A DNA stretch of 64,000 bases from an uncultured Gemmatimonadales bacterium (GCA_963737835.1 CAVTUH010000001.1:2914022-2978021), one strand, 5' to 3'. Counted from the first letter of the stretch, positions 51,917 to 61,674 are shown. Notes: a model not told the origin generated them from the sequence alone. Made by a program: numbers and translations.

Positions 51917-52936
51917 CTATTGCCCCGTCCCCTGTTCTAGGCACCAGTTGGTCGTGCCCCTGAAGATCTCGACCCAGCGGCCGTCCTTGTAGCGCATGAT
52001 CATCGGATAGGTATCGCCGCCGTACTGCCAGCCTTCGAGCACGATGGCGTCGACGCCGTTGCCGTCGATATCGATGTGGTCCACGTACCGCCGGTAGAGT
52101 GCCTTCCCGGCGGACCCGTTGACGGTCGCGCTGAAGGTAGGGGTATAGTCGCCGCCGATCTTGTCGGCGATCGCGAAGAGGTACGACGTCTTGTCGCCGT
52201 GGGCTGCGGCTTCCTCGGCGTTCGGGTCGATGTACGACACGACGAGCGTCGGGTCCGCGGTTGCGCCGGTGTTGACGGCCAGCGCGCGAAAATCGAGCGA
52301 GTCGAGTCGGGTGCGCGGGATGTGCGCCTTTTCGGCGACTTTGGCCCCGACGTCCCGAGCGAGCGTGACGACCTCGCTGGTCGCCATCGGGCTGCTCTCA
52401 TGGGCCGGCGGCAGATCCACGCTCGTCGCCAGGAACTCGACCGTGATGCCGGCTTTGACGTTGGCGTCGATGCTGACCGCTGCGAGTGGAATGAGGCTCT
52501 GACAATTGGGCAGGGTGTAGAGCGGCGCTTCAGGGCGGGACCACATCCCTTGCTTCACCGTCGCCTGGCCCACGGGGCGCCCGTCCTGATACACGGTGTA
52601 GGCGGCGCCGGGACGGTGGTAGAGGCGGTCGAACGTCCGCCACCCGCCGGGTGACAGACGAATGGGTCGCAATTTCCCATTGTCCAACGAGGCGAGCGGC
52701 ACCATCCGAGGATCATCACGCTCGCCGAACACCTCGAAGAGGATCGGCGGATGCTTGCGCAGGTCCAATTCCTGGCCGGCCGGGATCGACGGGGCAGTGT
52801 CACCCGCACTCGCCTTGTTGCATCCTGCGGCGAGGGTTACCGTTAGCCACATCGCGGCGGCGACGGCCGAGCGGGCCGCCGTTTGCGAGAACACCGCGCG
52901 CCGGCTCAACCCGGCGTCTCCGTATCCTGTTGTCAC
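51917..52936 (-). CDS. Hypothetical lipoprotein
   Basis: Signal peptide with lipobox (TLAAGC). 339 aa. No family recognised. Confidence 0.5.
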   Translation of the reverse strand: MTTGYGDAGLSRRAVFSQTAARSAVAAAMWLTVTLAAGCNKASAGDTAPSIPAGQELDLRKHPPILFEVFGERDDPRMVPLASLDNGKLRPIRLSPGGWRTFDRLYHRPGAAYTVYQDGRPVGQATVKQGMWSRPEAPLYTLPNCQSLIPLAAVSIDANVKAGITVEFLATSVDLPPAHESSPMATSEVVTLARDVGAKVAEKAHIPRTRLDSLDFRALAVNTGATADPTLVVSYIDPNAEEAAAHGDKTSYLFAIADKIGGDYTPTFSATVNGSAGKALYRRYVDHIDIDGNGVDAIVLEGWQYGGDTYPMIMRYKDGRWVEIFRGTTNWCLEQGTGQ

Positions 52937-52952
52937 GCGTCGTGTAGGGTCA

Positions 52953-53936
52953 ATGGACGCAAGCCTCCGCAGTGTGCAGCGCTTGCTCGGTCAGTGGGCG
53001 CCACACCTCCGAGGGACGGATCGCGGCGGTCCCACCTTGGAGACGCTTCCCGCGGCAACCGAGTCACCACGGCTGGCAGTTGCCGTCGTGATCGAGGGCG
53101 ACGAGTTCGAAGCACGGGAGGTACCCGGCCCGCCAACCGAGATGTTTGGTGGGTTTCTCGACGGCGCCCAGACGAGCCGGGTGTTGATGTACGACCGTGG
53201 CGTGCCGATCGTCCATGGCGTTGCCGCGGCGGTGATTCGCGCGCGCCGAGACCGACGTCTCGTCACGTGGCGGCGAGGCGTTCGCAAGCACGAGGCGGTC
53301 TACGCACCCACCGTGCTGGCGCCTGCGTTGTGTCAGCGGCTGGTCGATGACGGCGTGCAGGTGATCGACACGAGCACTCGCCTCGCGGAGGCCGATCAGG
53401 GTGTGTCGGCCGAAGGCGCGCACCCGGCGGTGCTGATCGATCGCGCACGCCGGTGCGTGGAGGCGCGCCGCGAGCGGCTGGAACGTGCGTTGGCGGAGGA
53501 GTGGTGCGACTCCGAGGACGCTCCGCTGTACATCGACGGTGCCATCGCGGGCAAGGAGCACGTCGCCACGTCGGGCAAGAGCGTCGGTGTCGTGCAGCGG
53601 CATCATGTGCTGTACGGGGGTGGTGAGGCGGTGCCGCGGCTTGCCGCGCTCCGACAAGGGGAGCGCACGACGGTCTTCCTGGTCTCGTCAGGCCGCTGGA
53701 CGCCGGTGTGGAGCTGGTATTTGCGCCTGCGCAACGCCGCGCGCCACGAGCCGATGTGGGGGCTCGTGCGGATCGAATGCGCCGCCGGAAGGTCGGACAC
53801 CGCGAGCGATCGCGCGAACGAGATTTCGCGGTGGGTCTTGGCCGAGCGGGTGCCGATCGCGCTCCCCGACCCGCAGTGGCACGCTTTGGCGTACGGTATC
53901 CGGGATTGCAAGGAGATGCTGCGGGCCACGATGTAA
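52953..53936 (+). CDS. nurA: NurA-like 5'-3' nuclease (RNase H-like fold), HerA partner
   Basis: ~328 aa. Candidate catalytic motif FGGFLDGAQTS (DGS-like) and a second …LYIDGAIAG…. Located immediately upstream of a HerA-like ATPase, as in archaeal and Deinococcus nurA-herA pairs. Start chosen at ATG 52953. The assignment rests mainly on context. Confidence 0.5.
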   Translation: MDASLRSVQRLLGQWAPHLRGTDRGGPTLETLPAATESPRLAVAVVIEGDEFEAREVPGPPTEMFGGFLDGAQTSRVLMYDRGVPIVHGVAAAVIRARRDRRLVTWRRGVRKHEAVYAPTVLAPALCQRLVDDGVQVIDTSTRLAEADQGVSAEGAHPAVLIDRARRCVEARRERLERALAEEWCDSEDAPLYIDGAIAGKEHVATSGKSVGVVQRHHVLYGGGEAVPRLAALRQGERTTVFLVSSGRWTPVWSWYLRLRNAARHEPMWGLVRIECAAGRSDTASDRANEISRWVLAERVPIALPDPQWHALAYGIRDCKEMLRATM

Positions 53937-53992
53937 CGCCGCGCGCACACGCGCGGCGTAGGAAGGCGAGAGGAGAAAGGAGAGAGGAGAGT
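53937..53992 (+). promoter_or_regulatory. 9-bp GC hairpin directly after the nurA stop, followed by a purine-rich GGA-repeat tract ending at the herA start
   Basis: cgccgcgcg-caca-cgcgcggcg, then aggaaggcgagaggagaaaggagagaggagag. Possible attenuator or translational control region. Confidence 0.35.
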
Positions 53993-56039
53993 GGACGGAA
54001 TCAACAACGAGGGGCGCGTGGTGACCGGCGAGGTCGAGGGTGACGAGGGGACAGGAGAGGCGCGAGAGGCACTGGGTTCGTCAGACCACCCGCTCGAGCC
54101 GCTCGGTCGCGTTGTCGCGACGGAGCGACGACCCAGCACGCCGCACGAGTTTCATTTTTGGACGGCGCTCAATGCAGCGGTGGGGATCGGGACGATCGTG
54201 CGGGTGGAAGGCGGACCAACGGTCAATGGGGTCGTGCCGCGAGTCTATGGCGTCGTGGTCGAGGCGATCGGCTACACGGACCTCCAGTCGCCGCTGCACG
54301 ATGTGATGGGGTTCGACGGGTCCCCGGCGCACGCGCCGCTGGCAACGACGGAGCGAACGGAGATCCGTCTGTATACCGCCGCGGTACTGCGCCAGATACC
54401 GGAAGAGCCGATGCAACCGGTTCCGATGGGGATGGTCTTTCTGGCCGACGATGATGACGTCGCGTGTGCGCTCCGTATGGATGGGTACATCGCGGCGGGA
54501 TCACGCAACGCGATCCCCATCGGGGTCTACCACGGCGGGGGGATCGACGCGCCAGTCTATCTGGACGCGGACTTTCTGTTGGGTCCCGAAGCGGCGCATC
54601 TCACCGTGACGGGCGTCTCGGGTCTCGCGACCAAGACGAGTGCGGTCGAGTGGCTGCTGGCATCGATTTTCGCCCACTTTCCGGCCGACAAATCGGTCGC
54701 GGCCGTCTGCTTCAACGTGAAGGGGCCAGACCTCTGCTTTCTCGACCAGCCTGCGACGGATCTGGCAGACGCCGATCGCGCGTTGTACGAGAAGCTCGGC
54801 GTACCGCCCACGCCGTTCCGCGACGTGCAGTACTTCGCGCCGTATCGGGCCGAAGGGTACACCCTCAACACCTTGCGATCGAACGAGGCCCTCGAGCACA
54901 ACGTGACGCCGCTCGCGTGGGGGCTGCGCGAAGTCATGGAGTACGCCGACGTCCTGCTGAATCGCGAGGACGTCAATGCGAAGGCGGATGCGTTGATCGA
55001 CTTCATTCGCGAGCGAGTCGTGGGTCGCCAGTTCACCGACCCGGTGCTGAAGGACACCTACTCCGTGCAGTCGTTCAGCGATCTCGAACAGTGGTTTCGC
55101 GACCTGCTGGAGCAGCTCGAGCAGCGCAATCACGAGAGCTGGCGCACGCATCATGTGGCGACGCTCCGGAAAATTCGGAACCGGCTGATCAACATTGCCC
55201 AGCGGTGCGCGGGGCTGGTGACTTCGGCAGGCGATGCGAGCGACCTGCCGTGGGGGCACTTTCGCGATCGAACGGTGTACGTGATCGACGTCGCCAATCT
55301 CGAGCAGGACGCGCAGGATCTGATCTTTGCGCGCGTGGTGTCGCAGTTACGCACCTACCTCGAGCGGCGAGACCTTGGCGTGAAGCACCTCGTGGTCTTT
55401 GTCGACGAGCTCAACCGCTACGCGCCAACCGATGGACCCGAGACGTATGTCCGGAAGATGTTGCTCGACCTGGCAGAGCGGGGGCGGTACCTGGGCCTCG
55501 TCTTGTTCGGGGCGCAGCAATTTCGGTCACAGGTGCATCGCCGAGTGGTCGGGAACGCGGGTACGCAGGTCTTCGGGCGCATGGATGCCGACGAGCTCGC
55601 GTCGCCGGGATACGCGGTGCTGAGTCCGGCGATCCGGACGAAGCTCGCAACGCTTGAGAAAGGGCAATTGATGGTACGTCATCCGCATTTCACGCAGCCA
55701 ATTTTCGTTCGGTTCCCGCGACCGCCGGTCCTGTCGGGCCGTGAGGGGGTCGAGCGGTTCCCGGCGGCGGAGCCTGTGCCGCCTGCGGTGGCGGTGACGC
55801 GCCGCTTGCGCCGGCTCGATTCCACGATCACGCTCGAATGGGTCAAGCAGCACACGGAACTGTACGAGCCCGAGGAGGTCTTGCACGCGTGTCAGCTGGC
55901 GGAGCTCAGGAAGCCCAACGACGTGCGCGCGTTCATTCAGCACCAACTCCGACGCATCGTGCCGACGCGCCCCGCTGCGCAGCCGGAGTTCCTCGTGCCG
56001 TTGCACGCGCTGCCTAGCGCCAATCCGTACGGCGTTTGA
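53991..56039 (+). CDS. herA: HerA-like hexameric ATPase/helicase (HAS-barrel + RecA-like ATPase)
   Basis: N-terminal HAS-barrel-like segment (HEFHFW…GTIVRV…VYGVVVEAIGY). P-loop-like GVSGLATKTS. Walker B VVFVDELNRY. ATQRP-like …LFGAQQFRSQ…. 682 aa. Confidence 0.6.
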   Translation: MDGINNEGRVVTGEVEGDEGTGEAREALGSSDHPLEPLGRVVATERRPSTPHEFHFWTALNAAVGIGTIVRVEGGPTVNGVVPRVYGVVVEAIGYTDLQSPLHDVMGFDGSPAHAPLATTERTEIRLYTAAVLRQIPEEPMQPVPMGMVFLADDDDVACALRMDGYIAAGSRNAIPIGVYHGGGIDAPVYLDADFLLGPEAAHLTVTGVSGLATKTSAVEWLLASIFAHFPADKSVAAVCFNVKGPDLCFLDQPATDLADADRALYEKLGVPPTPFRDVQYFAPYRAEGYTLNTLRSNEALEHNVTPLAWGLREVMEYADVLLNREDVNAKADALIDFIRERVVGRQFTDPVLKDTYSVQSFSDLEQWFRDLLEQLEQRNHESWRTHHVATLRKIRNRLINIAQRCAGLVTSAGDASDLPWGHFRDRTVYVIDVANLEQDAQDLIFARVVSQLRTYLERRDLGVKHLVVFVDELNRYAPTDGPETYVRKMLLDLAERGRYLGLVLFGAQQFRSQVHRRVVGNAGTQVFGRMDADELASPGYAVLSPAIRTKLATLEKGQLMVRHPHFTQPIFVRFPRPPVLSGREGVERFPAAEPVPPAVAVTRRLRRLDSTITLEWVKQHTELYEPEEVLHACQLAELRKPNDVRAFIQHQLRRIVPTRPAAQPEFLVPLHALPSANPYGV

Positions 56040-56923
56040 GGGGCGACGCCGTGCGCCGTTCCAGGCCTCTGAGTCTCACTCGATACGCGCGTAGCCCCTG
56101 GGTGCGCGCGGTGCTCATCCCGTTGATGCTCGCGGGGGCCGCGTCGAGATCGCACGCACAGCAGGTCCTCCTGCAATTGCGCCCGCACGCGGGCGACACG
56201 CTGCACATGCGCCTCGACCAGGAAATGAACATCATGCGGACGGGCCAGGCCGCTCTGGGAGACGCCGCGACTGCCGTGACGACGACGTGGGTCGTGCTCC
56301 AGCGCATGATCGTCGAGCGCGCGGACAGCTCCGGTACGGAGGTCATGCAGGTGACGGATTCGGTCTCGACGGAGCGCATCGATGATCGTGGACCGGAGCC
56401 CGCGCCGCGGCGAAACCGGCCGGTCGATGGCAGTCACGTGCTGCTGCATGTGGCGCCCGACGGTGCGGTGACACTCCTCGACAGCACCAACAGCGTGAGC
56501 TCGGCCCTGCGGGAGGTGCTGAGGGACCTGCCCGTGACCTTCCCGCGAGACCCGGTCAAGGTCGGGCAGAGCTGGGTCCGGGCCATGAAGCTTCCGGCCG
56601 GCGCGGGCTACGGGCAGGGGGGTGAGATCAAGCTGGAGTTCCGGCTGGACTCCGTTGCGGATGGGTCTGATCTGGCGTACGTCTCGGTCCATGGACCGCT
56701 CGGTGGGGCTCGCGTGAATGCCGCCGTCGGCGGGGCGACGGTGACGACGCGGGGGACTCTGGCGGGCACGATGGTGATCGACCGCCGCCGGGGGTGGCTC
56801 ACCGATTGGCACGCGACCATCGACGTGCAGTACGACATGCAGCCGCCGACGGGCTCGAACCAGTCCCCTGGGCGCATGCGGATGACGGCCACACAGTGGT
56901 TGCGGGCTATCGATCGGCCCTAG
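56036..56923 (+). CDS. Hypothetical secreted protein (signal peptide) embedded in the nurA-herA-sbcDC cluster
   Basis: Start overlaps the herA stop. Hydrophobic signal with an AXA-type site (AGAASRSHA-QQ). 295 aa. No family recognised. Confidence 0.5.
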   Translation: MRGDAVRRSRPLSLTRYARSPWVRAVLIPLMLAGAASRSHAQQVLLQLRPHAGDTLHMRLDQEMNIMRTGQAALGDAATAVTTTWVVLQRMIVERADSSGTEVMQVTDSVSTERIDDRGPEPAPRRNRPVDGSHVLLHVAPDGAVTLLDSTNSVSSALREVLRDLPVTFPRDPVKVGQSWVRAMKLPAGAGYGQGGEIKLEFRLDSVADGSDLAYVSVHGPLGGARVNAAVGGATVTTRGTLAGTMVIDRRRGWLTDWHATIDVQYDMQPPTGSNQSPGRMRMTATQWLRAIDRP

Positions 56924-56935
56924 ATTGCGGTACGC

Positions 56936-58135
56936 ATGCGGCTGGTCCATCTCTCCGATCTCCACCTGGGCTATCGGCAGTACCAGCGCCTTACGCCCAG
57001 CGGAATCAACCAACGCGAGGCAGATGTTGCACTCGCGTGTAAGCGGGCGATCAATGCGACCATCGGTCTCAAGCCCGAGTTCGTGCTATTCGCCGGCGAC
57101 ATCTTTCACACGGTGCGGCCGACGAATCCGGCCATCCTGCACGCGTTCGAGCAGTTTGCCCGACTTCGCGCGGCGCTCCCGGAGTCAACGATCGTCATGG
57201 TCGCCGGGAACCACGACACCCCCCGCGCGGCGGAAACGGGTTGCATCCTCCGCTTGTTCACTCCGCTCGGCATTCACGTCGTGGATTCGACGGCCGCCCG
57301 GCTCACGTTTCCCGACCGCGGTGTCTCGATCCTCGCCGTCCCCAATGTCCTCGGAGACCGACCGGCACTGACTCCGGACCCCAATGCCCGGTACAACGTG
57401 CTGCTGCTCCACGGCGAGGTCGAGGGCATGTTTCCGGGCGCAGCGGCGGCGACCGATCGATCGGCGATGGAAGTCACGAAGGAAGAACTGGCTGCCGAGC
57501 GATGGAGTTATGTCGCGCTCGGCCACTTCCATGTCTACCGCAGCATCGCCCCCAACGCGTTCTATTCCGGATCGCTGGACTACACGAGCGCGAACCCGTG
57601 GGGTGAGCTGATCGAGGAACGGGCGACCGGTGTGGCTGGCAAGGGGTTCATCGAGTACAACCTGGAGACTCGCCGGCATCGTTTTCACCCGATTGCGCTC
57701 GCACGGCCGCTCGTCGACCTGAGCGCGATATCGGCGCGTGGCCTCACCGCGGCCGACGTCGACGCACAGATTGCCGACGCGGTCAATCGGTGTGACGGAG
57801 GGATCGAGGGCAAGATCGTGCGACTGGTCGTGCGCGACATTCCCCGTCACATCGTTCGCGAGCTCGACCACCGACTCCTGCGAGAGTACCGGCGGCGGGC
57901 GCTGCATTTTCAGCTCGATGCACGACGCCCGGAAGTGATTCGACTGCATGGGCAGGGTGCCCCCGGGCGCCGACCGTCGCTGGCCGACATCGTCCGCGAC
58001 AAGCTGCAGAGCCGTCTGCTCGAAGCCGATATCGACCGATCGGCGCTGGTCGATCTGGGACTCCGATATCTCGCGGAAGCCGAGGCGGTGAGTGTCGCCG
58101 CCGTGGCGCCCGAAGCGGGGGACGCGGAGGCGTGA
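56936..58135 (+). CDS. sbcD: DNA repair exonuclease SbcD/Mre11 (calcineurin-like phosphoesterase)
   Basis: Phosphoesterase motifs HLSDLHLG, GDIFH, GNHD, GHFH. 399 aa. Confidence 0.9.
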   Translation: MRLVHLSDLHLGYRQYQRLTPSGINQREADVALACKRAINATIGLKPEFVLFAGDIFHTVRPTNPAILHAFEQFARLRAALPESTIVMVAGNHDTPRAAETGCILRLFTPLGIHVVDSTAARLTFPDRGVSILAVPNVLGDRPALTPDPNARYNVLLLHGEVEGMFPGAAAATDRSAMEVTKEELAAERWSYVALGHFHVYRSIAPNAFYSGSLDYTSANPWGELIEERATGVAGKGFIEYNLETRRHRFHPIALARPLVDLSAISARGLTAADVDAQIADAVNRCDGGIEGKIVRLVVRDIPRHIVRELDHRLLREYRRRALHFQLDARRPEVIRLHGQGAPGRRPSLADIVRDKLQSRLLEADIDRSALVDLGLRYLAEAEAVSVAAVAPEAGDAEA

Positions 58136-60615
58136 GGCTCAACAGCCTGCACCTCGTCAACTTCCGCCAACACGCGGATAGCCGGATCAGCTTCGATTCG
58201 GGGCTGACCGGGATCATCGGCCCCAACGGGTCTGGGAAGACGACGATTCTCGAGGCGGTCGCGTGGGCGCTCTACGGCAACAGTGCAGCCCGGGGCACAC
58301 GAGAGTCGTTGCGCTACAATCGGGCGGCGTCGCGGGCCACGGTGCGTGTCGAGCTCGACTTCGATCTGGCAGGGCACCGCTATCGAGTCGTGCGCGGGCT
58401 GACGAACGCGGAGCTGTATCTGGATGGCGCCGGGCAGCCGATCGCGAATTCCATCACCGGCGTGACGGATTTGCTGCAGCGGCGCCTGGGCATGACGCGC
58501 GCCGAGTTCTTCAACACGTACTTTACGGCGCAGAAAGAGCTGAACGTCATGGCCGCGATGGGCCCGTCGGACCGGGCCAAGTTTCTGTCGCGGGTGCTCG
58601 GGTACGAGAAGCTCCGTACGGCGCAGGACCTGGTCCGGGACCAGCGCAAGCTGATCACCGCGGAGACGGCCGGACTGCGTGCGGGCATGCCGGATCGCGA
58701 GACGATCGAGCGAATCGAGGCGGAGGCCGCGGCTCGGTGGACGGCGGCCAACCGGCGGCTCGCCGAAGCGGACGAGCGGGAGCGCGCAGCGGAACTCTCC
58801 TTGTCGGCGGTCACGCCCGAGTGGGAGCACTTGCAGCGCGAGCGCGACCGGCTGCAGGAGCTGTTGACCGATCTCAAGATTGCGGAGCGGGACGAAGAAG
58901 TCCTGGTGCGTGATGGGGAGCGGATCACGGGCGAGCTGGCGGACGTCGCGACCGCGCGGGCGGAGCTCGAGCCGTTGCGCCGCGAGCTGGCCGGGTACGC
59001 GGGACTGGTGGCGGAGTTGCAGCGGGCGGACGAGTCCTACCGAGAGGAAGGACGGCGTCAGACGCTGATCGAGACCGAGCGAGCAGTCGATGAAGAGCTG
59101 GCGCGTTTGCGCGAGCGGCGCGTCACGCTGGAGCCCGCGCCGGCGCTCGAGGAGGAAGTGACGCTTGCCCTCGAGGCGCGGCGCGGCGAGCTCGAGGAGA
59201 CACAGGGGCAGCTAGAGGCGCGGCGGACCGAGTGGGTGCGCGACCGCCAGGAGGCGGAAACGAAGCTCCAGGCGCTGCGTGTCCAGTACGTCGACATGCG
59301 CCAGCAACGCGAGCGGCTCGTGTCCGCGGGTGAGGAAGGCCAGTGCCCGACGTGTGCGCGACCACTGGGCGGCCATCTGCGCAGCGTGCTCGAGCTGCTC
59401 GAGGATCAAGCCGAGACCATGCAGGTGGACGGCGCGTACTTCCGGGCGCGTCTCGAGCAGCTCGAGCAGATGCCGACAGAGGTTCGCGCGCTCGACGAGC
59501 TGCGCAAAGCGATGACGCACGACGTCGGCGGGCTCGAGCGCAAGCTGGCGAAGACGCAGCTCGCCGTGCAGGAGTTGCAGCAGGTCGGGCGCGACGCGAC
59601 GAGCAAGGAACAGCGCAAGGCGGCGTTGGCGCGGGACATCGCGGCGATCCCCGCGGGGTACAACGCGGCCAGGCACACCTATCTCAAGAACGAGGTCGAG
59701 CGACTCGCGCCGCTGGACGCGCGCGCGGCCCGACTCGGTGCGCTGGTCGAGCGCGAGCCGCAGCTCGCGCGCGAGCGGGCGCGGGTCGAGGCGGCAGCCG
59801 CCGGCGTGTTCGACCGATTGAAGGAAATGCGCACGCGGCGGGACAGCATCCGGTTCTCGGAGACGGCCTACCAGGCGGTGCGGGCGCAGCACGAACGCGC
59901 GGCGGCGGAAGCGCGTGGTGCCGAAATCGCGGCGGCGACGGCGCGCTCCGAGGTGGCGGCGGCGCGCACCGCGGTCGAAAACGCCGAAGCCGGTCGGCGC
60001 TCGCTGGACAGGTTGCAGAGCAAACTCGATGCGCTGCAGCGAGACAAGCGCTTGCACGATGAGCTGGACCGCGCGTACTCCGACCTTCGCACGGATCTCA
60101 ACTTCGCGCTACGCCCGGAGATCTCGGAGCTGGCCAGCAGCTTCCTCAGCGACCTCACCGAGGGGCGATATGCGGAGCTGGAGCTCGACGACCAGTACAA
60201 CGTCATCGTGCTCGAGGACGGAGTGCCGAAACCTGTCATTTCTGGGGGCGAAGAGGATCTCGCACACCTCGTGCTCAGACTGGCGATCTCGCAAATGATC
60301 GCGGAGCGAGCGGGACAGTCCTTCTCGCTGCTCATCCTGGACGAGGTGTTCGGCTCTCTGGACGACGTGCGACGGCACAATGTGATAGAGCTCTTGCATC
60401 GACTGCGCGATCGATTTGAGCAAGTGATTCTGATCACGCACATCGACTACGTGCGCGAAGGGCTCGACCGTGTGGTCACGGTGCGCTACGATGAGGATCG
60501 CGGATGTTCGGTTGTCGAGCAGGAGGATCGGGAACAACTGCCGGTGGGCCTGCCTCCGGACGCGGCGCCGATGGGCGGTGGGTCGGAGGCGGCGATGACG
60601 AGCTCGGCAGCGTAG
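58132..60615 (+). CDS. sbcC: DNA repair ATPase SbcC/Rad50
   Basis: Walker A GPNGSGKTT. Long coiled-coils with a central CxxC zinc hook (CPTCARPL). Signature/D-loop …GGEEDLAHLVLRLAIS…LILDEVFGSLD. The start overlaps the sbcD stop. Confidence 0.92.
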   Translation: MRLNSLHLVNFRQHADSRISFDSGLTGIIGPNGSGKTTILEAVAWALYGNSAARGTRESLRYNRAASRATVRVELDFDLAGHRYRVVRGLTNAELYLDGAGQPIANSITGVTDLLQRRLGMTRAEFFNTYFTAQKELNVMAAMGPSDRAKFLSRVLGYEKLRTAQDLVRDQRKLITAETAGLRAGMPDRETIERIEAEAAARWTAANRRLAEADERERAAELSLSAVTPEWEHLQRERDRLQELLTDLKIAERDEEVLVRDGERITGELADVATARAELEPLRRELAGYAGLVAELQRADESYREEGRRQTLIETERAVDEELARLRERRVTLEPAPALEEEVTLALEARRGELEETQGQLEARRTEWVRDRQEAETKLQALRVQYVDMRQQRERLVSAGEEGQCPTCARPLGGHLRSVLELLEDQAETMQVDGAYFRARLEQLEQMPTEVRALDELRKAMTHDVGGLERKLAKTQLAVQELQQVGRDATSKEQRKAALARDIAAIPAGYNAARHTYLKNEVERLAPLDARAARLGALVEREPQLARERARVEAAAAGVFDRLKEMRTRRDSIRFSETAYQAVRAQHERAAAEARGAEIAAATARSEVAAARTAVENAEAGRRSLDRLQSKLDALQRDKRLHDELDRAYSDLRTDLNFALRPEISELASSFLSDLTEGRYAELELDDQYNVIVLEDGVPKPVISGGEEDLAHLVLRLAISQMIAERAGQSFSLLILDEVFGSLDDVRRHNVIELLHRLRDRFEQVILITHIDYVREGLDRVVTVRYDEDRGCSVVEQEDREQLPVGLPPDAAPMGGGSEAAMTSSAA

Positions 60616-60626
60616 GAGGTACCTGC

Positions 60627-60657
60627 GGGTTTGGGGTCTGGGGTTTGGGGTCTGGGA
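60627..60657. repeat. G-quadruplex-type heptamer arm (gggtttggggtctggggtttggggtctggg)
   Basis: Lies between the sbcC stop and the GNAT start. Four or more G-runs of 3-4 separated by 3 nt. Confidence 0.6.
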
Positions 60658-60699
60658 ACGACGACGGCAACTACGTCTGGTGGCGAAGGGAGAGCGGTG

Positions 60700-61674
60700 A
60701 TGGCGATTGCGCGAAGCTGGAAGACCGTGCGACATCTCGACGGGCCATATCAGGCCGGGCGCGATGACATCCCTGCTCTGAATCAGGTATTCAGCGACGC
60801 GTTTACCGAGCGGTATCGCCGCGATGGCATGATGGGCGTGCGCGTGCCGTATCTGAATCCGGCGATCTGGCGCTATGCGCTCGACGACGCCGGTGAGGGC
60901 GCGATGTGCTGGCGGGGCGAGCGCGATGAGATCGCCGCATTCAACATGACGCATCGATCGGGGGCCGAGGGCTGGATGGGTCCCCTCGCAGTCCGTCCCG
61001 ACGCACAGGGCAGCGGGGTCGGCAAGGAGGTCGTGCGGTCCGGTATCGAGTGGTTGCGACGAGGGGAGGCGCACGTGATCGGCCTCGAGACGATGCCGAG
61101 GACGATGGACAACATCGGGTTTTACTCGGCGCTCGGGCTCGTGCCCGGCCGGTTGACGCTGACACTCACCTTCGATGCCGCGGCGGGTGACCGTGCGGCG
61201 CCGCTGCTGGGGCGGTTGCCGCAGACCGATCGGGACGACGTGGTAGCGGCGAGTCGCGTCCTCGTGCATCGGCTCATGCCCGGCTACGACTTCACGCGCG
61301 AGATCGTGTTGACTGACGAGCTCGCGCTCGGCGATACCGTCTTACACTACTCCGGCGGCGACCTCACGGGCTTTGCGCTGTGCCACACGGCGCCCCTCGT
61401 CGAAGGACGCGCGCGTGAGGAGCTGCGTGTGCTCAAGCTCGCGCTCGCGCGCGAGGTCGATCTGGACCCGATGGTGCGTGCGCTGGCCGACTACGCCCGC
61501 CGTTGCGGTGCCCGCCGCGTCGCGCTTCGCGTACAGAGCGAGTACACGACGGCGTACGCGCGACTCATCGCGCTTGGGGCGCGCGTGCGATGGACCGATC
61601 TCCGCATGACCCTCGCGACGGCACCGGAGCGGCGTGCGGAACAGGGAATTGTGTGGTCGAACTGGGAGGTCTAG
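60700..61674 (+). CDS. GNAT-family N-acetyltransferase
   Basis: Acetyl-CoA binding motif …LAVRPDAQGSGVGKEVV…. Start chosen at ATG 60700. Confidence 0.7.
   Translation: MAIARSWKTVRHLDGPYQAGRDDIPALNQVFSDAFTERYRRDGMMGVRVPYLNPAIWRYALDDAGEGAMCWRGERDEIAAFNMTHRSGAEGWMGPLAVRPDAQGSGVGKEVVRSGIEWLRRGEAHVIGLETMPRTMDNIGFYSALGLVPGRLTLTLTFDAAAGDRAAPLLGRLPQTDRDDVVAASRVLVHRLMPGYDFTREIVLTDELALGDTVLHYSGGDLTGFALCHTAPLVEGRAREELRVLKLALAREVDLDPMVRALADYARRCGARRVALRVQSEYTTAYARLIALGARVRWTDLRMTLATAPERRAEQGIVWSNWEV

What the first reader, a model, noticed from the sequence alone, without database searches (positions are those of the whole stretch)
52953..60615. Archaeal-style DNA end-resection module in a bacterium: nurA-herA-(secreted ORF)-sbcD(mre11)-sbcC(rad50) as one tightly coupled cluster
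Five co-directional genes with overlapping or near-abutting stop and start codons. herA-to-ORF and sbcD-to-sbcC share ATGA/TTGA-type overlaps, and nurA to herA is separated by 54 nt. The NurA-like nuclease and HerA-like HAS-barrel ATPase sit directly upstream of Mre11/SbcD and Rad50/SbcC. This four-component arrangement is the hallmark of archaeal double-strand-break resection operons. In bacteria nurA-herA pairs are sporadic (Deinococcus-Thermus, defence islands) and, to my knowledge, are not normally fused into an operon with sbcCD. The combination suggests either a complete horizontally acquired resection machine or a nuclease-helicase defence-type module recruited to SbcCD.
Basis: partly seen in the sequence, partly recalled or inferred. 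Interest (0 to 1): 0.75.

Follow-up and report, generated by a model that had tools for sequence, protein, structure and literature searches.

The report
NurA-HerA-Mre11-Rad50 repair operon, Gemmatimonadales
A soil bacterium of the Gemmatimonadales group carries, as one tightly packed gene cluster, the same four DNA-break-processing proteins (NurA, HerA, Mre11, Rad50) that thermophilic archaea keep in one operon; the cluster is real and is kept across the sampled close relatives of this bacterium, but the same layout has been noted in another bacterium and I found it in several other phyla, so it is a new example rather than a new kind of system.

Summary
Five co-directional ORFs lie at the stated coordinates, with a 54-nt gap, a 12-nt gap and two 4-nt stop/start overlaps.

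- **ORF2** is a bacterial-type HerA (E 1.8e-44 to Deinococcus HerA, Walker A and B intact).
- **ORF4 and ORF5** are Mre11 and a short Rad50 with a CPTC zinc hook. Their best matches are archaeal and Thermotoga proteins.
- **ORF3** is an exported DUF6263 beta-barrel protein, missing in 5 of 30 related loci, and is probably a passenger.

The cluster is not a recent import or a defence island. In 85 related loci, every contig long enough carries nurA-herA-mre11-rad50 followed by a GNAT gene. GC content is ordinary and the flanks are often shared.

The layout is not unique in bacteria. It was noted in Oceanithermus profundus (PMC5448004). I also found NurA-like + HerA + SbcD + SbcC clusters in Cyanobacteriota, Chloroflexota and Actinomycetota.

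Most likely function: Mre11-Rad50 opens DNA ends and a HerA-NurA complex resects them.

Verdict: new member of a known kind, moderate interest.

The parts
51917..52936 (-). Divergent upstream neighbour: a predicted Tat/lipobox lipoprotein of unknown function (SRRAVF ... LAAGC). It is not part of the module but marks its left edge. Its start codon lies 16 nt from the nurA start.
   Evidence: translation; no Pfam or NCBIfam hit; conserved next to nurA in 28 related loci.
52953..53936 (+). nurA: a bacterial-type NurA nuclease of 327 aa with an RNase H/PIWI-like fold. The proposed metal-binding residues are D70 (FLDG), E177, D195 (IDG) and D318.
53936..53959 (+). GC-rich hairpin with a 10-bp stem just after the nurA stop and no U tract. 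It is followed by the purine-rich Shine-Dalgarno run of herA. It is probably incidental.
   Evidence: -23.9 kcal/mol, z -2.9. It is not conserved in related loci.
53991..56039 (+). herA: a bacterial-type HerA hexameric translocase/ATPase of 682 aa. It has Walker A GVSGLATKTS (208-217) and Walker B VDELN (471-475). The N-terminal ~35 residues are variable and low in complexity.
   Evidence: phmmer against D. radiodurans HerA 7f6d_B gives E 1.8e-44 over residues 36-316 and 359-588. Motifs. It is the most conserved gene of the cluster, with median 70% identity in relatives.
56051..56923 (+). DUF6263 protein, exported: an N-terminal hydrophobic helix followed by an all-beta open barrel. It is a probable passenger gene. 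The mechanical ORF starts at 56036.
   Evidence: Pfam DUF6263 29.3 bits. AF2 model pLDDT 84. The nearest folds are the ApoB, MTP and lipovitellin beta-barrels and M. smegmatis LmcA. Hydrophobic peak at residues 22-37. Present in 25 of 30 related loci and absent from L005, L007, L010, L011, L076 and L098.
56936..58135 (+). mre11/sbcD: Mre11-type phosphoesterase nuclease of 399 aa. All five motifs are present (DLHLG, GDIFH, GNHD, LLHG, GHFH).
   Evidence: Pfam Metallophos. NCBIfam best hits are Mre11_Sulfo 65.8 bits and sbcd 58.6 bits. The best PDB hits are M. jannaschii and P. furiosus Mre11. Motifs.
58132..60615 (+). rad50/sbcC: a short-coiled-coil Rad50 ATPase of 827 aa. It has Walker A at 30, a CPTC zinc hook at 405, signature SGGE at 704, Walker B at 736 and an H-loop at 769.
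   Evidence: Pfam SMC_N, AAA_23 and SbcC_Walker_B. NCBIfam archaeal Rad50 PRK03918 scores 201 bits against 90.6 for sbcc. The best PDB hits are M. jannaschii, P. furiosus and T. maritima Rad50. Motifs.
60631..61674 (+). GNAT-family acetyltransferase of 347 aa, 15 nt downstream of rad50 with its own GGAGG. It is a conserved neighbour and may be co-transcribed. Its role is unknown.
   Evidence: Pfam Acetyltransf_1. No PDB sequence relative. It follows rad50 in 22 of 22 related loci but is absent from the more distant four-gene locus L098.

Best explanation
This is a chromosomal, apparently vertically inherited double-strand-break end-processing operon of a Gemmatimonadales-like bacterium. It encodes NurA, HerA, Mre11 and Rad50, with a DUF6263 passenger gene between herA and mre11 and a GNAT gene after rad50.

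Proposed mechanism, inferred from the characterised Deinococcus and archaeal proteins:
1. The Mre11-Rad50 complex recognises DNA ends and clips blocked or hairpinned ones.
2. A HerA hexamer carrying a NurA dimer on its HAS-barrel face then loads on the end.
3. HerA uses ATP to push duplex DNA into the NurA dimer.
4. NurA separates the strands and digests the 5' strand, possibly both strands.
5. This leaves a 3' tail for RecA.

Shown here: the folds and families of the four proteins, intact catalytic and ATPase motifs, tight gene packing, and strict conservation of the four-gene order in the sampled relatives. Inferred: the physical HerA-NurA complex, cooperation with Mre11-Rad50, co-transcription, and a role in recombinational repair.
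For: **Protein identities**
- NurA fold and invariant D70/E177/D195/D318.
- HerA at E 1.8e-44 to DrHerA, with Walker A and B aligned to the residues that PMC9960219 names K175/T176 and D487/E488.
- Mre11 motifs I-V and the full Rad50 motif set, including the zinc hook.

**Packing**
- Gaps of 54, about 11 and 12 nt, a GTGA overlap and a further 15-nt gap.
- No sigma-70-like promoter match on the + strand inside the cluster. The single terminator-like match lies within rad50 and is no more than chance.

**Conservation in relatives**
- herA follows nurA in 56 of 56 loci.
- mre11 is present in 30 of 30 and rad50 in 28 of 28.

**Core-genome character**
- The flanking aminotransferase, lipoprotein and GNAT genes are shared across relatives.
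- GC is 0.65-0.70 against a window range of 0.64-0.70.

**Recurrent linkage elsewhere, which argues for a functional tie**
- Locus L098 has orthologous Mre11 and Rad50 but different flanks.
- In cyanobacterial, chloroflexal and actinobacterial records the NurA-HerA pair sits next to long SbcC proteins of 1000-1100 aa. These are only remotely similar to this Rad50 (E 1e-6 to 4e-17).
- The layout is published for Oceanithermus.

**Published biochemistry**
- D. radiodurans NurA-HerA resects DNA ends (PMC9960219).
Against: - No experimental data exist for this lineage.
- In D. radiodurans, NurA-HerA contributes little to radiation resistance (PMC4663267).
- A 2026 study of Thermococcus HerA-NurA found that it degrades both strands. 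That study questions a resection role and suggests antiviral activity instead (PMC12977600).
- Four of the six closest HerA relatives outside the core set have no Mre11-Rad50 gene nearby, so the pair can work without an adjacent Mre11-Rad50.
- An exported protein gene sits in the middle of the cluster in most relatives. That is odd for a pure repair operon.
- Conserved flanks show that gene order in this lineage is generally stable. Part of the synteny signal is therefore inheritance rather than selection.
Confidence: 0.7

Rival explanations
1. The module is mainly an anti-plasmid or anti-phage nuclease machine. HerA-NurA, helped by Mre11-Rad50, would load on the free ends of incoming linear DNA and destroy both strands, much as RecBCD does before it meets Chi. 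Recombinational repair would be secondary.
For: - Related NurA-HerA-SbcD-SbcC clusters lie on plasmids or next to ImmA/IrrE, TIR, HEPN and Wadjet-like genes.
- Another branch of the same HerA-NurA family sits between a type IIG restriction-methylase and a second methyltransferase in 3 of 4 sampled contigs; the fourth lacks the second methyltransferase.
- HerA partners with Sir2 and DUF4297 effectors in known defence systems, and Thermococcus HerA-NurA degrades both strands.
Against: - In this lineage the cluster sits at a fixed chromosomal locus among housekeeping-type genes. No modification gene, regulator of the ImmA/IrrE type, integrase or transposase lies nearby.
- It is present in every related contig long enough to show it, unlike the patchy distribution usual for defence systems.
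- GC content is not deviant.
- The PADLOC hits are generic P-loop and SMC-head matches only.
Confidence: 0.15
2. These are two independent systems that merely sit side by side. NurA-HerA would do something unrelated to Mre11-Rad50, such as replication-fork or chromosome-segregation work or modulation of RecJ as in Deinococcus. The adjacency would be inherited gene order without functional coupling.
For: - The DUF6263 gene separates the two pairs in 25 of 30 relatives.
- The flanking aminotransferase and GNAT genes are conserved as well, which shows generally stable synteny.
- Many NurA-HerA pairs stand alone (Thermus and Deinococcus).
Against: - NurA-HerA is linked to Mre11-Rad50 or SbcCD in at least four bacterial phyla. 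The SbcC/Rad50 proteins involved are only remotely related to one another, and the gene order differs between groups.
- The same linkage defines the thermophilic archaeal operon, where HerA-Mre11 interaction has been reported.
- Where DUF6263 is absent, herA and mre11 are about 70-290 nt apart by tblastn coordinates.
Confidence: 0.1
3. A complete archaeal resection machine was acquired by horizontal transfer.
For: - Rad50 and Mre11 score better against archaeal models and structures than against SbcC/SbcD models.
- Rad50 has the short archaeal-like length of 827 aa.
Against: - HerA and NurA are clearly of the bacterial type. The best solved relatives are Deinococcus and Thermotoga proteins, and no archaeal HerA chain appeared up to E = 1.
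- The gene order nurA-herA-mre11-rad50 differs from herA-mre11-rad50-nurA, which I recall from my own knowledge as the Sulfolobus order.
- Short Rad50 also occurs in Thermotoga.
- There is no compositional anomaly, and the cluster is present throughout the sampled lineage.
- An ancient transfer of the Mre11-Rad50 pair cannot be excluded.
Confidence: 0.05

Closest known systems
Oceanithermus profundus nurA-hepA(herA)-sbcD-sbcC cluster (Blesa et al. 2017, PMC5448004)
   Same: It is a bacterium with a bacterial-type NurA-HerA pair followed directly by SbcD/Mre11 and SbcC/Rad50 genes. The authors already read it as an architecture and function similar to the archaeal double-strand-break repair system.
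   Different: It belongs to a different phylum (Deinococcota, a thermophile). No DUF6263 insert or GNAT gene was reported. It was mentioned in passing only and has no functional data. I could not compare the sequences directly.
Deinococcus radiodurans NurA-HerA (DR_0836/DR_0837; PDB 7F6D)
   Different: The published nurA-herA unit is a two-gene operon with no sbcCD in it. Whether HerA-NurA works with SbcCD there is stated to be unknown (PMC4663267). NurA sequence identity to this protein is only about 15-17%.
Thermophilic archaeal herA-mre11-rad50-nurA operon (Sulfolobus, Pyrococcus)
   Same: The same four activities are encoded in one tight co-directional cluster. The Mre11 and Rad50 here score best against archaeal models and structures.
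NurA-like/HerA/SbcD/SbcC clusters in Cyanobacteriota, Chloroflexota and Actinomycetota. Four are on plasmids (Sphaerospermopsis, Aulosira, Ca. Chlorohelix, Streptomyces). The fifth, Nonomuraea, is an 11.85-Mb record filed as a plasmid.
   Same: The same four protein families lie adjacent and co-directional. HerA scores E 1e-46 to 1e-53 against this HerA, and the NurA-like proteins hit this family's profile at E 4e-15 to 1e-7.
   Different: They carry long SbcC proteins of about 1000-1100 aa that are only remotely related to this Rad50. Most are plasmid-borne, often next to ImmA/IrrE and defence genes. In the actinobacterial records the order is herA-sbcD-sbcC-nurA. They are annotated only as 'hypothetical protein' or 'ATP-binding protein', and as far as I could find they are undescribed.
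HerA-partnered defence systems (Sir2-HerA, DUF4297-HerA, TdpAB)
   Different: Those systems have no Mre11-Rad50 partner. Here there is no Sir2, DUF4297 or modification gene, and the context is not a defence island.

Membership tests
NurA nuclease family | RNase H/PIWI-like NurA fold | tested here: met
NurA nuclease family | Metal-binding acidic residues: Asp on strand 1, Glu on the long helix, Asp on strand 4, and His/Asp/Glu on a C-terminal helix (PfNurA D51/E105/D126/H411; TmNurA D49/E140/D157/E280, per PMC3300031) | tested here: met
   D70 (FLDG, start of strand 67-81), E177 (helix 158-187), D195 (IDG, strand 192-195) and D318 (helix 314-326) are invariant in 64 homologues. FLDG aligns to the FVDG of TM1739. 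The placement rests on secondary-structure position. No 3D superposition of side chains was possible.
NurA nuclease family | Match to the curated sequence model (Pfam PF09376 NurA) at its threshold | tested here: not met
   There is no Pfam hit at E <= 0.01. The family profile reaches DrNurA only at E 1.6e-4. A related cyanobacterial protein scores 18.5 bits against a cut-off of 21. The bacterial branch is too divergent for the model, which explains the 'hypothetical protein' annotations.
NurA nuclease family | Encoded next to a herA gene | tested here: met
   herA follows after 54 nt here. It follows nurA in 56 of 56 related loci and in all more distant contexts examined except L096.
NurA nuclease family | Dimeric Mn2+-dependent 5'-3' exo/endonuclease activity stimulated by HerA | not testable with these tools
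   This needs biochemistry.
HerA (FtsK-HerA superfamily) translocase | Full-length sequence homology to a characterised HerA, covering the HAS-barrel, RecA-like and helix-bundle parts | tested here: met
   phmmer against D. radiodurans HerA 7f6d_B gives E 1.8e-44, aligning query 36-316 and 359-588 to chain 13-299 and 369-602. It is the only PDB hit up to E = 1, so the protein is not VirB4/TraG-like.
HerA (FtsK-HerA superfamily) translocase | Walker A (GxxGxxxKT/S) and Walker B (hhhhDE) motifs | tested here: met
   GVSGLATKTS at 208-217 and VFVDELN at 469-475. These align to DrHerA GISGVATKTS and VLDELN, which carry K175/T176 and D487/E488.
HerA (FtsK-HerA superfamily) translocase | Match to curated models (Pfam DUF87/HerA; NCBIfam HerA_Thermprot) at threshold | tested here: not met
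   No Pfam hit. NF040937 scores 15.7 bits against a cut-off of 800. That model is an equivalog for Thermoproteota, so failure shows the protein is not the archaeal orthologue, not that it is not a HerA.
Mre11/SbcD nuclease | Calcineurin-like phosphoesterase domain with the five Mre11 motifs | tested here: met
   Pfam Metallophos scores 38.1 bits against a cut-off of 21.5. Motifs DLHLG (8-12), GDIFH (54), GNHD (91), LLHG (157) and GHFH (196) are all present. The best PDB hits are M. jannaschii and P. furiosus Mre11.
Mre11/SbcD nuclease | Reaches an NCBIfam family cut-off (sbcd TIGR00619 or an archaeal Mre11 equivalog) | tested here: not met
   sbcd scores 58.6 bits against a cut-off of 77.65, and Mre11_Sulfo 65.8 against 500. 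It is a divergent member with only the N-terminal half well matched.
Rad50/SbcC ATPase | Split ABC-type head (Walker A, signature, Walker B, H-loop) separated by a coiled coil with a CxxC zinc hook | tested here: met
   GPNGSGKT at 30, CPTC at 405 (mid-protein), SGGE at 704, LLILDE at 733-738 and THI at 769. Pfam SMC_N scores 76.3 bits (cut-off 40) and SbcC_Walker_B 34.6 (cut-off 27). The best PDB hits are archaeal and Thermotoga Rad50 heads.
Archaeal-type four-gene end-resection operon (herA, mre11, rad50, nurA) | All four genes adjacent and co-directional | tested here: met
   The arrangement is conserved in relatives.
Archaeal-type four-gene end-resection operon (herA, mre11, rad50, nurA) | Single polycistronic transcript, inducible by DNA damage | not testable with these tools
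   Only indirect evidence is available: short or overlapping junctions and no promoter or terminator consensus inside the cluster.
Archaeal-type four-gene end-resection operon (herA, mre11, rad50, nurA) | HerA and NurA of the archaeal type | tested here: not met
   The closest solved relatives are the bacterial proteins. No archaeal HerA chain appeared up to E = 1, and archaeal NurAs rank below bacterial ones.
Known anti-phage defence systems (PADLOC models) | Specific match of the components to a defence-system model, and a defence-island or mobile context | tested here: not met
   NurA and DUF6263 have no hit. HerA hits only mad8 at 1.9e-9. Rad50 hits LmuB, mad3 and PbeC through the generic SMC head. 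The neighbours are an aminotransferase, a lipoprotein, a GNAT, an AraC-type HTH protein and a flavodoxin-like protein.

The most novel reading that the evidence does not exclude
Gemmatimonadota would be a bacterial phylum whose main long-range end-resection machine is the archaeal-logic NurA-HerA plus Mre11-Rad50 set, encoded as one operon, rather than RecBCD, AddAB or AdnAB. The repeated joining of NurA-HerA to remotely related SbcCD/Rad50 pairs in other phyla would then reflect a general and so far unrecognised physical partnership between bacterial HerA-NurA and Mre11-Rad50. A further possibility is that the conserved DUF6263 and GNAT genes are functional accessories, for example acetylation control of the machine.
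Probability: 0.2. Interest if true: 0.6.

Novelty: new member of a known kind. Interest (0 to 1): 0.4.

Why it matters
Reviews still describe bacterial NurA-HerA as limited to a few bacteria, mainly Deinococcus-Thermus. The Deinococcus literature states that its relation to SbcCD is unknown.

This locus shows an abundant group of soil bacteria in which the four genes appear locked together. The same linkage recurs in four or more phyla, with SbcC/Rad50 proteins that are only remotely related to one another. That is comparative evidence that bacterial HerA-NurA cooperates with Mre11-Rad50. It also points to a cultivable relative, Gemmatimonas, in which the question could be tested genetically.

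There is a practical annotation point as well. Bacterial NurA and HerA fall below the Pfam and NCBIfam thresholds, so such modules are labelled 'hypothetical protein' and 'ATP-binding protein' and go unnoticed.

Tried and rejected
- **Pfam, NCBIfam and PADLOC on ORF1.** No hits. Identification needed a structure model.
- **phmmer of the long ORF1 form (52662-53936) against PDB.** Only noise. The upstream extension overlaps the divergent lipoprotein gene and is not supported by homologue lengths.
- **Genome-contig scan with the single NurA protein.** It returned only three close relatives.
- **Hairpin after the nurA stop as an attenuator or terminator.** It is stable but has no U tract and is not conserved in relatives, so I rejected it as a conserved element.
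- **Promoter and terminator consensus scan.** Counts were at chance level. It is uninformative for this phylum.
- **MADS defence-system relationship suggested by PADLOC mad3 and mad8 hits.** mad8 also hits the Rad50 head, so the matches are generic P-loop similarity. Rejected.
- **ORF3 as a DNA-repair accessory.** The fold is a lipid-binding-type exported beta-barrel, and the gene is absent in several relatives. I treat it as a passenger.
- **Iyer et al. 2004 and Cheng et al. 2015.** These could contain earlier remarks on bacterial contexts, but neither is held in the library.

Full report
**1. Observation**

The window has about 66% GC throughout. Its closest public relatives are Gemmatimonadales metagenome-assembled genomes, at 95%, 85% and 66% NurA identity. 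One ORF3 homologue is named by NCBI as a Gemmatimonadaceae protein.

The junctions, read from the sequence, are:

| Junction | What the sequence shows |
|---|---|
| nurA to herA | nurA stop ends at 53936 and herA GTG starts at 53991, a 54-nt spacer ending in a purine-rich ribosome-binding run |
| herA to ORF3 | herA TGA overlaps a TTG at 56036; a GTG at 56051 preceded by GAGGGG is the more credible ORF3 start |
| ORF3 to mre11 | 12 nt |
| mre11 to rad50 | the stop and start overlap as GTGA, preceded by GGAGG |
| rad50 to GNAT | the GNAT gene (60631-61674) follows after 15 nt with its own GGAGG |

The description is therefore confirmed, with three corrections. The second overlap is GTGA. The TTGA overlap is probably not the real start. 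The cluster may extend one gene further to the right.

**2. What the genes are**

*ORF1 (327 aa).*
- It has no Pfam, NCBIfam or PADLOC match and no PDB sequence match as a single sequence.
- It belongs to a well-populated family: 321 clusters at E <= 0.001 among the 8000 candidates scored. None carries a Pfam domain and all are labelled hypothetical.
- An AlphaFold2 model built on 64 homologues has mean pLDDT 86.4.
- The top four Foldseek hits in the PDB are all NurA chains: D. radiodurans NurA at 3.6e-13, both chains of T. maritima TM1739, and S. solfataricus NurA. Argonaute PIWI domains follow far behind.
- The family profile also reaches DrNurA by sequence at E 1.6e-4.
- Four acidic residues are invariant in all 64 homologues: D70 in FLDG, E177, D195 in IDG, and D318. 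They sit on the secondary-structure elements that carry the PfNurA and TmNurA metal ligands.

*ORF2 (682 aa).*
- It hits a single PDB sequence, D. radiodurans HerA, at E 1.8e-44 over nearly its full length.
- Walker A (GVSGLATKTS) and Walker B (VDELN) align to the functional residues of DrHerA.
- It is not a VirB4/TraG-type ATPase, so the second refutation test also fails.
- Pfam DUF87/HerA does not detect it.

*ORF4.* It carries all five Mre11 phosphoesterase motifs.

*ORF5.* It is an 827-aa Rad50 with a complete ABC head and a mid-protein CPTC zinc hook.

*Affinity of ORF4 and ORF5.* Both match archaeal proteins best, with Thermotoga next.
- NCBIfam archaeal Rad50 PRK03918 scores 201 bits against 90.6 for sbcc.
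- The best PDB hits are the M. jannaschii and P. furiosus proteins, followed by T. maritima.
- The module is therefore mixed: bacterial-type NurA-HerA with a short, Rad50-like rather than E. coli SbcC-like, Mre11-Rad50 pair.

*ORF3.*
- It is a DUF6263 protein.
- Its model (pLDDT 84) has an N-terminal hydrophobic helix followed by an all-beta open barrel.
- The nearest folds are the lipid-binding barrels of ApoB, MTP and lipovitellin and the mycobacterial periplasmic lipoglycan-binding protein LmcA.
- Nothing links it to DNA.

**3. Surroundings and relatives**

A metagenome scan with the NurA family alignment returned 80 loci with NurA identity of 42-63%. Five genome and contig loci were added to these. 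In this set of 85 loci:

| Gene | Present where the contig is long enough |
|---|---|
| herA after nurA | 56 of 56 |
| mre11 | 30 of 30 |
| rad50 | 28 of 28 |
| GNAT after rad50 | 22 of 22 |
| DUF6263 | 25 of 30 |

- The upstream aminotransferase and divergent lipoprotein are also often retained.
- HerA is the most conserved protein (median 70% identity) and NurA the least (46%).
- GC content of the cluster is unremarkable.
- The neighbours are ordinary genes: an aminotransferase, an AraC-type regulator, a GNAT and a flavodoxin-like protein.
- This is the signature of an apparently vertically inherited core locus. It is not the signature of a recent import or a defence island.

**4. Is the four-gene linkage unusual in bacteria?**

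*Literature.*
- Blesa et al. 2017 noted that in Oceanithermus profundus sbcD and sbcC lie downstream of nurA-hepA. They interpreted this as an archaeal-like double-strand-break repair architecture (PMC5448004).
- Otherwise, reviews up to 2026 describe bacterial NurA-HerA as rare and mostly confined to Deinococcus-Thermus. They leave the SbcCD connection open.

*Annotated records.*
- A tblastn search of this HerA against PLSDB found six records.
- In the five I examined, the HerA homologue sits beside an SbcD, a long SbcC or SMC ATPase, and a roughly 330-350-aa hypothetical protein. That protein hits this NurA family profile at E 4e-15 to 1e-7.
- The five records are Sphaerospermopsis, Aulosira, Ca. 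Chlorohelix, Streptomyces and Nonomuraea.
- Those SbcC proteins are only remotely similar to this Rad50 (E 1e-6 to 4e-17).
- The actinobacterial order is herA-sbcD-sbcC-nurA. The linkage may therefore have arisen more than once, though the proposed phylogenies would be needed to show it.

*Closest HerA representatives outside the core set (42-55% identity).*
- Two have Mre11-Rad50 adjacent. L098 has orthologous Mre11-Rad50, different flanks, and no DUF6263 or GNAT. The other is the P0142 contig.
- Four do not.

*Family size.* The bacterial-type HerA family is very large. At least 7926 clusters at 90% identity score E <= 1e-20, with members named from many phyla.

**5. Mechanism**

- The best-supported model is recombinational end processing. 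Mre11-Rad50 recognises and opens ends. HerA6-NurA2 then translocates on duplex DNA and degrades the 5' strand, or both strands, as shown in vitro for the Deinococcus complex (PMC9960219).
- Established here: folds, motifs, gene packing and conservation.
- Inferred: complex formation, cooperation with Mre11-Rad50, and co-transcription.
- The main rival is a defence role. It gains plausibility from the plasmid-borne and defence-island contexts of related modules, from the structural kinship to TdpB, and from the 2026 Thermococcus study. It fits this fixed housekeeping locus poorly.
- Mere adjacency without coupling is made unlikely by the recurrent linkage to remotely related SbcCD/Rad50 pairs.
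- Wholesale transfer from archaea is contradicted by the bacterial-type NurA-HerA and by the lineage-wide presence. An ancient archaeal origin of the Mre11-Rad50 pair remains open.

**6. Comparison and novelty**

- All four proteins pass the structural and motif tests of their families.
- They fail the curated sequence-model thresholds for NurA, HerA and sbcD. This explains why the cluster is invisible in automated annotation.
- As a system it matches the four-gene archaeal operon in content but not in the type of HerA and NurA or in gene order.
- It matches the published Oceanithermus arrangement in kind, so I file it as a new member of a known kind.
- New here:
  - the strict conservation across the sampled Gemmatimonadales-like loci;
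  - the mixed make-up of the module;
  - the DUF6263 insertion and the GNAT companion;
  - the evidence that the NurA-HerA and Mre11-Rad50 linkage recurs widely in bacteria.
- Interest is moderate (0.4). The finding gives comparative support and a possible experimental host for an open question in bacterial NurA-HerA biology, but it does not reveal a new type of system.

Noticed in passing
L091:302-7666, L092:2508-8683, L093:2602-10023, L094:1921-10101: A different branch of the bacterial NurA-HerA family has its own recurring layout in all four contigs sampled (Planctomycetota, Bipolaricaulota, Bacillota, Fimbriimonadales). The order is a type IIG restriction-methyltransferase (about 1100-1300 aa; for L093, PADLOC REase_MTase_IIG 1184 bits), then a NurA-like protein (about 375 aa), then HerA (about 570 aa). 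In L091 and L093 an N6/N4 methyltransferase follows (L093: PADLOC MTase_II 214 bits); L094 has a 451-aa protein with no Pfam hit in that position and L092 has nothing. I found no paper linking NurA-HerA with methyltransferases. It may be an undescribed restriction-modification-coupled defence module, analogous in logic to TdpABC.
   Followed up: partly
L087:4835-14149, L088:6706-13706, L090:4660-13972, L089:5775-15081, L086:7575-14273: Cyanobacterial, chloroflexal and actinobacterial records carry NurA-like + HerA + SbcD + long SbcC clusters annotated only as hypothetical or ATP-binding proteins. Four are plasmids; the Nonomuraea record is 11.85 Mb and filed as a plasmid. In Chlorohelix and Streptomyces the cluster lies next to an ImmA/IrrE metalloprotease, with a sigma factor as well in Chlorohelix. 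TIR, HEPN and Wadjet-like genes are nearby. This hints at a mobile, regulated version of the module.
   Followed up: partly
window 60631-61674: A 347-aa GNAT acetyltransferase with an uncharacterised C-terminal half follows rad50 in 22 of 22 related loci. It has no solved sequence relative. It is not present after the four-gene cluster in the more distant locus L098.
   Followed up: partly
window 53991-54095; L001:10984-11226; L010-L013 just after nurA: The region between nurA and the conserved core of HerA is hypervariable. In several relatives it is made of short tandem repeats, for example GACGCTAGACGTTG-like units in L001 and CAGACAAACGGCC units in L010-L013. These encode or precede a low-complexity HerA N-terminus.
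   Followed up: no
L096:5821-8471: In one lineage a HerA 45% identical to this one has no adjacent nurA and is followed by an ssb gene.
   Followed up: no
window 51917-52936 (- strand): The divergent neighbour is a 339-aa predicted Tat-signal lipoprotein (SRRAVF ... LAAGC) with no family match. Its start codon is only 16 nt from the nurA start, so the two genes must share a very short divergent control region.
   Followed up: no
L001, L002 (whole cluster): tblastn matches to several genes in these two assemblies are split into pieces in different frames, for example rad50 in L001 and nurA in L002. This suggests frameshift errors in those assemblies rather than pseudogenes.
   Followed up: no
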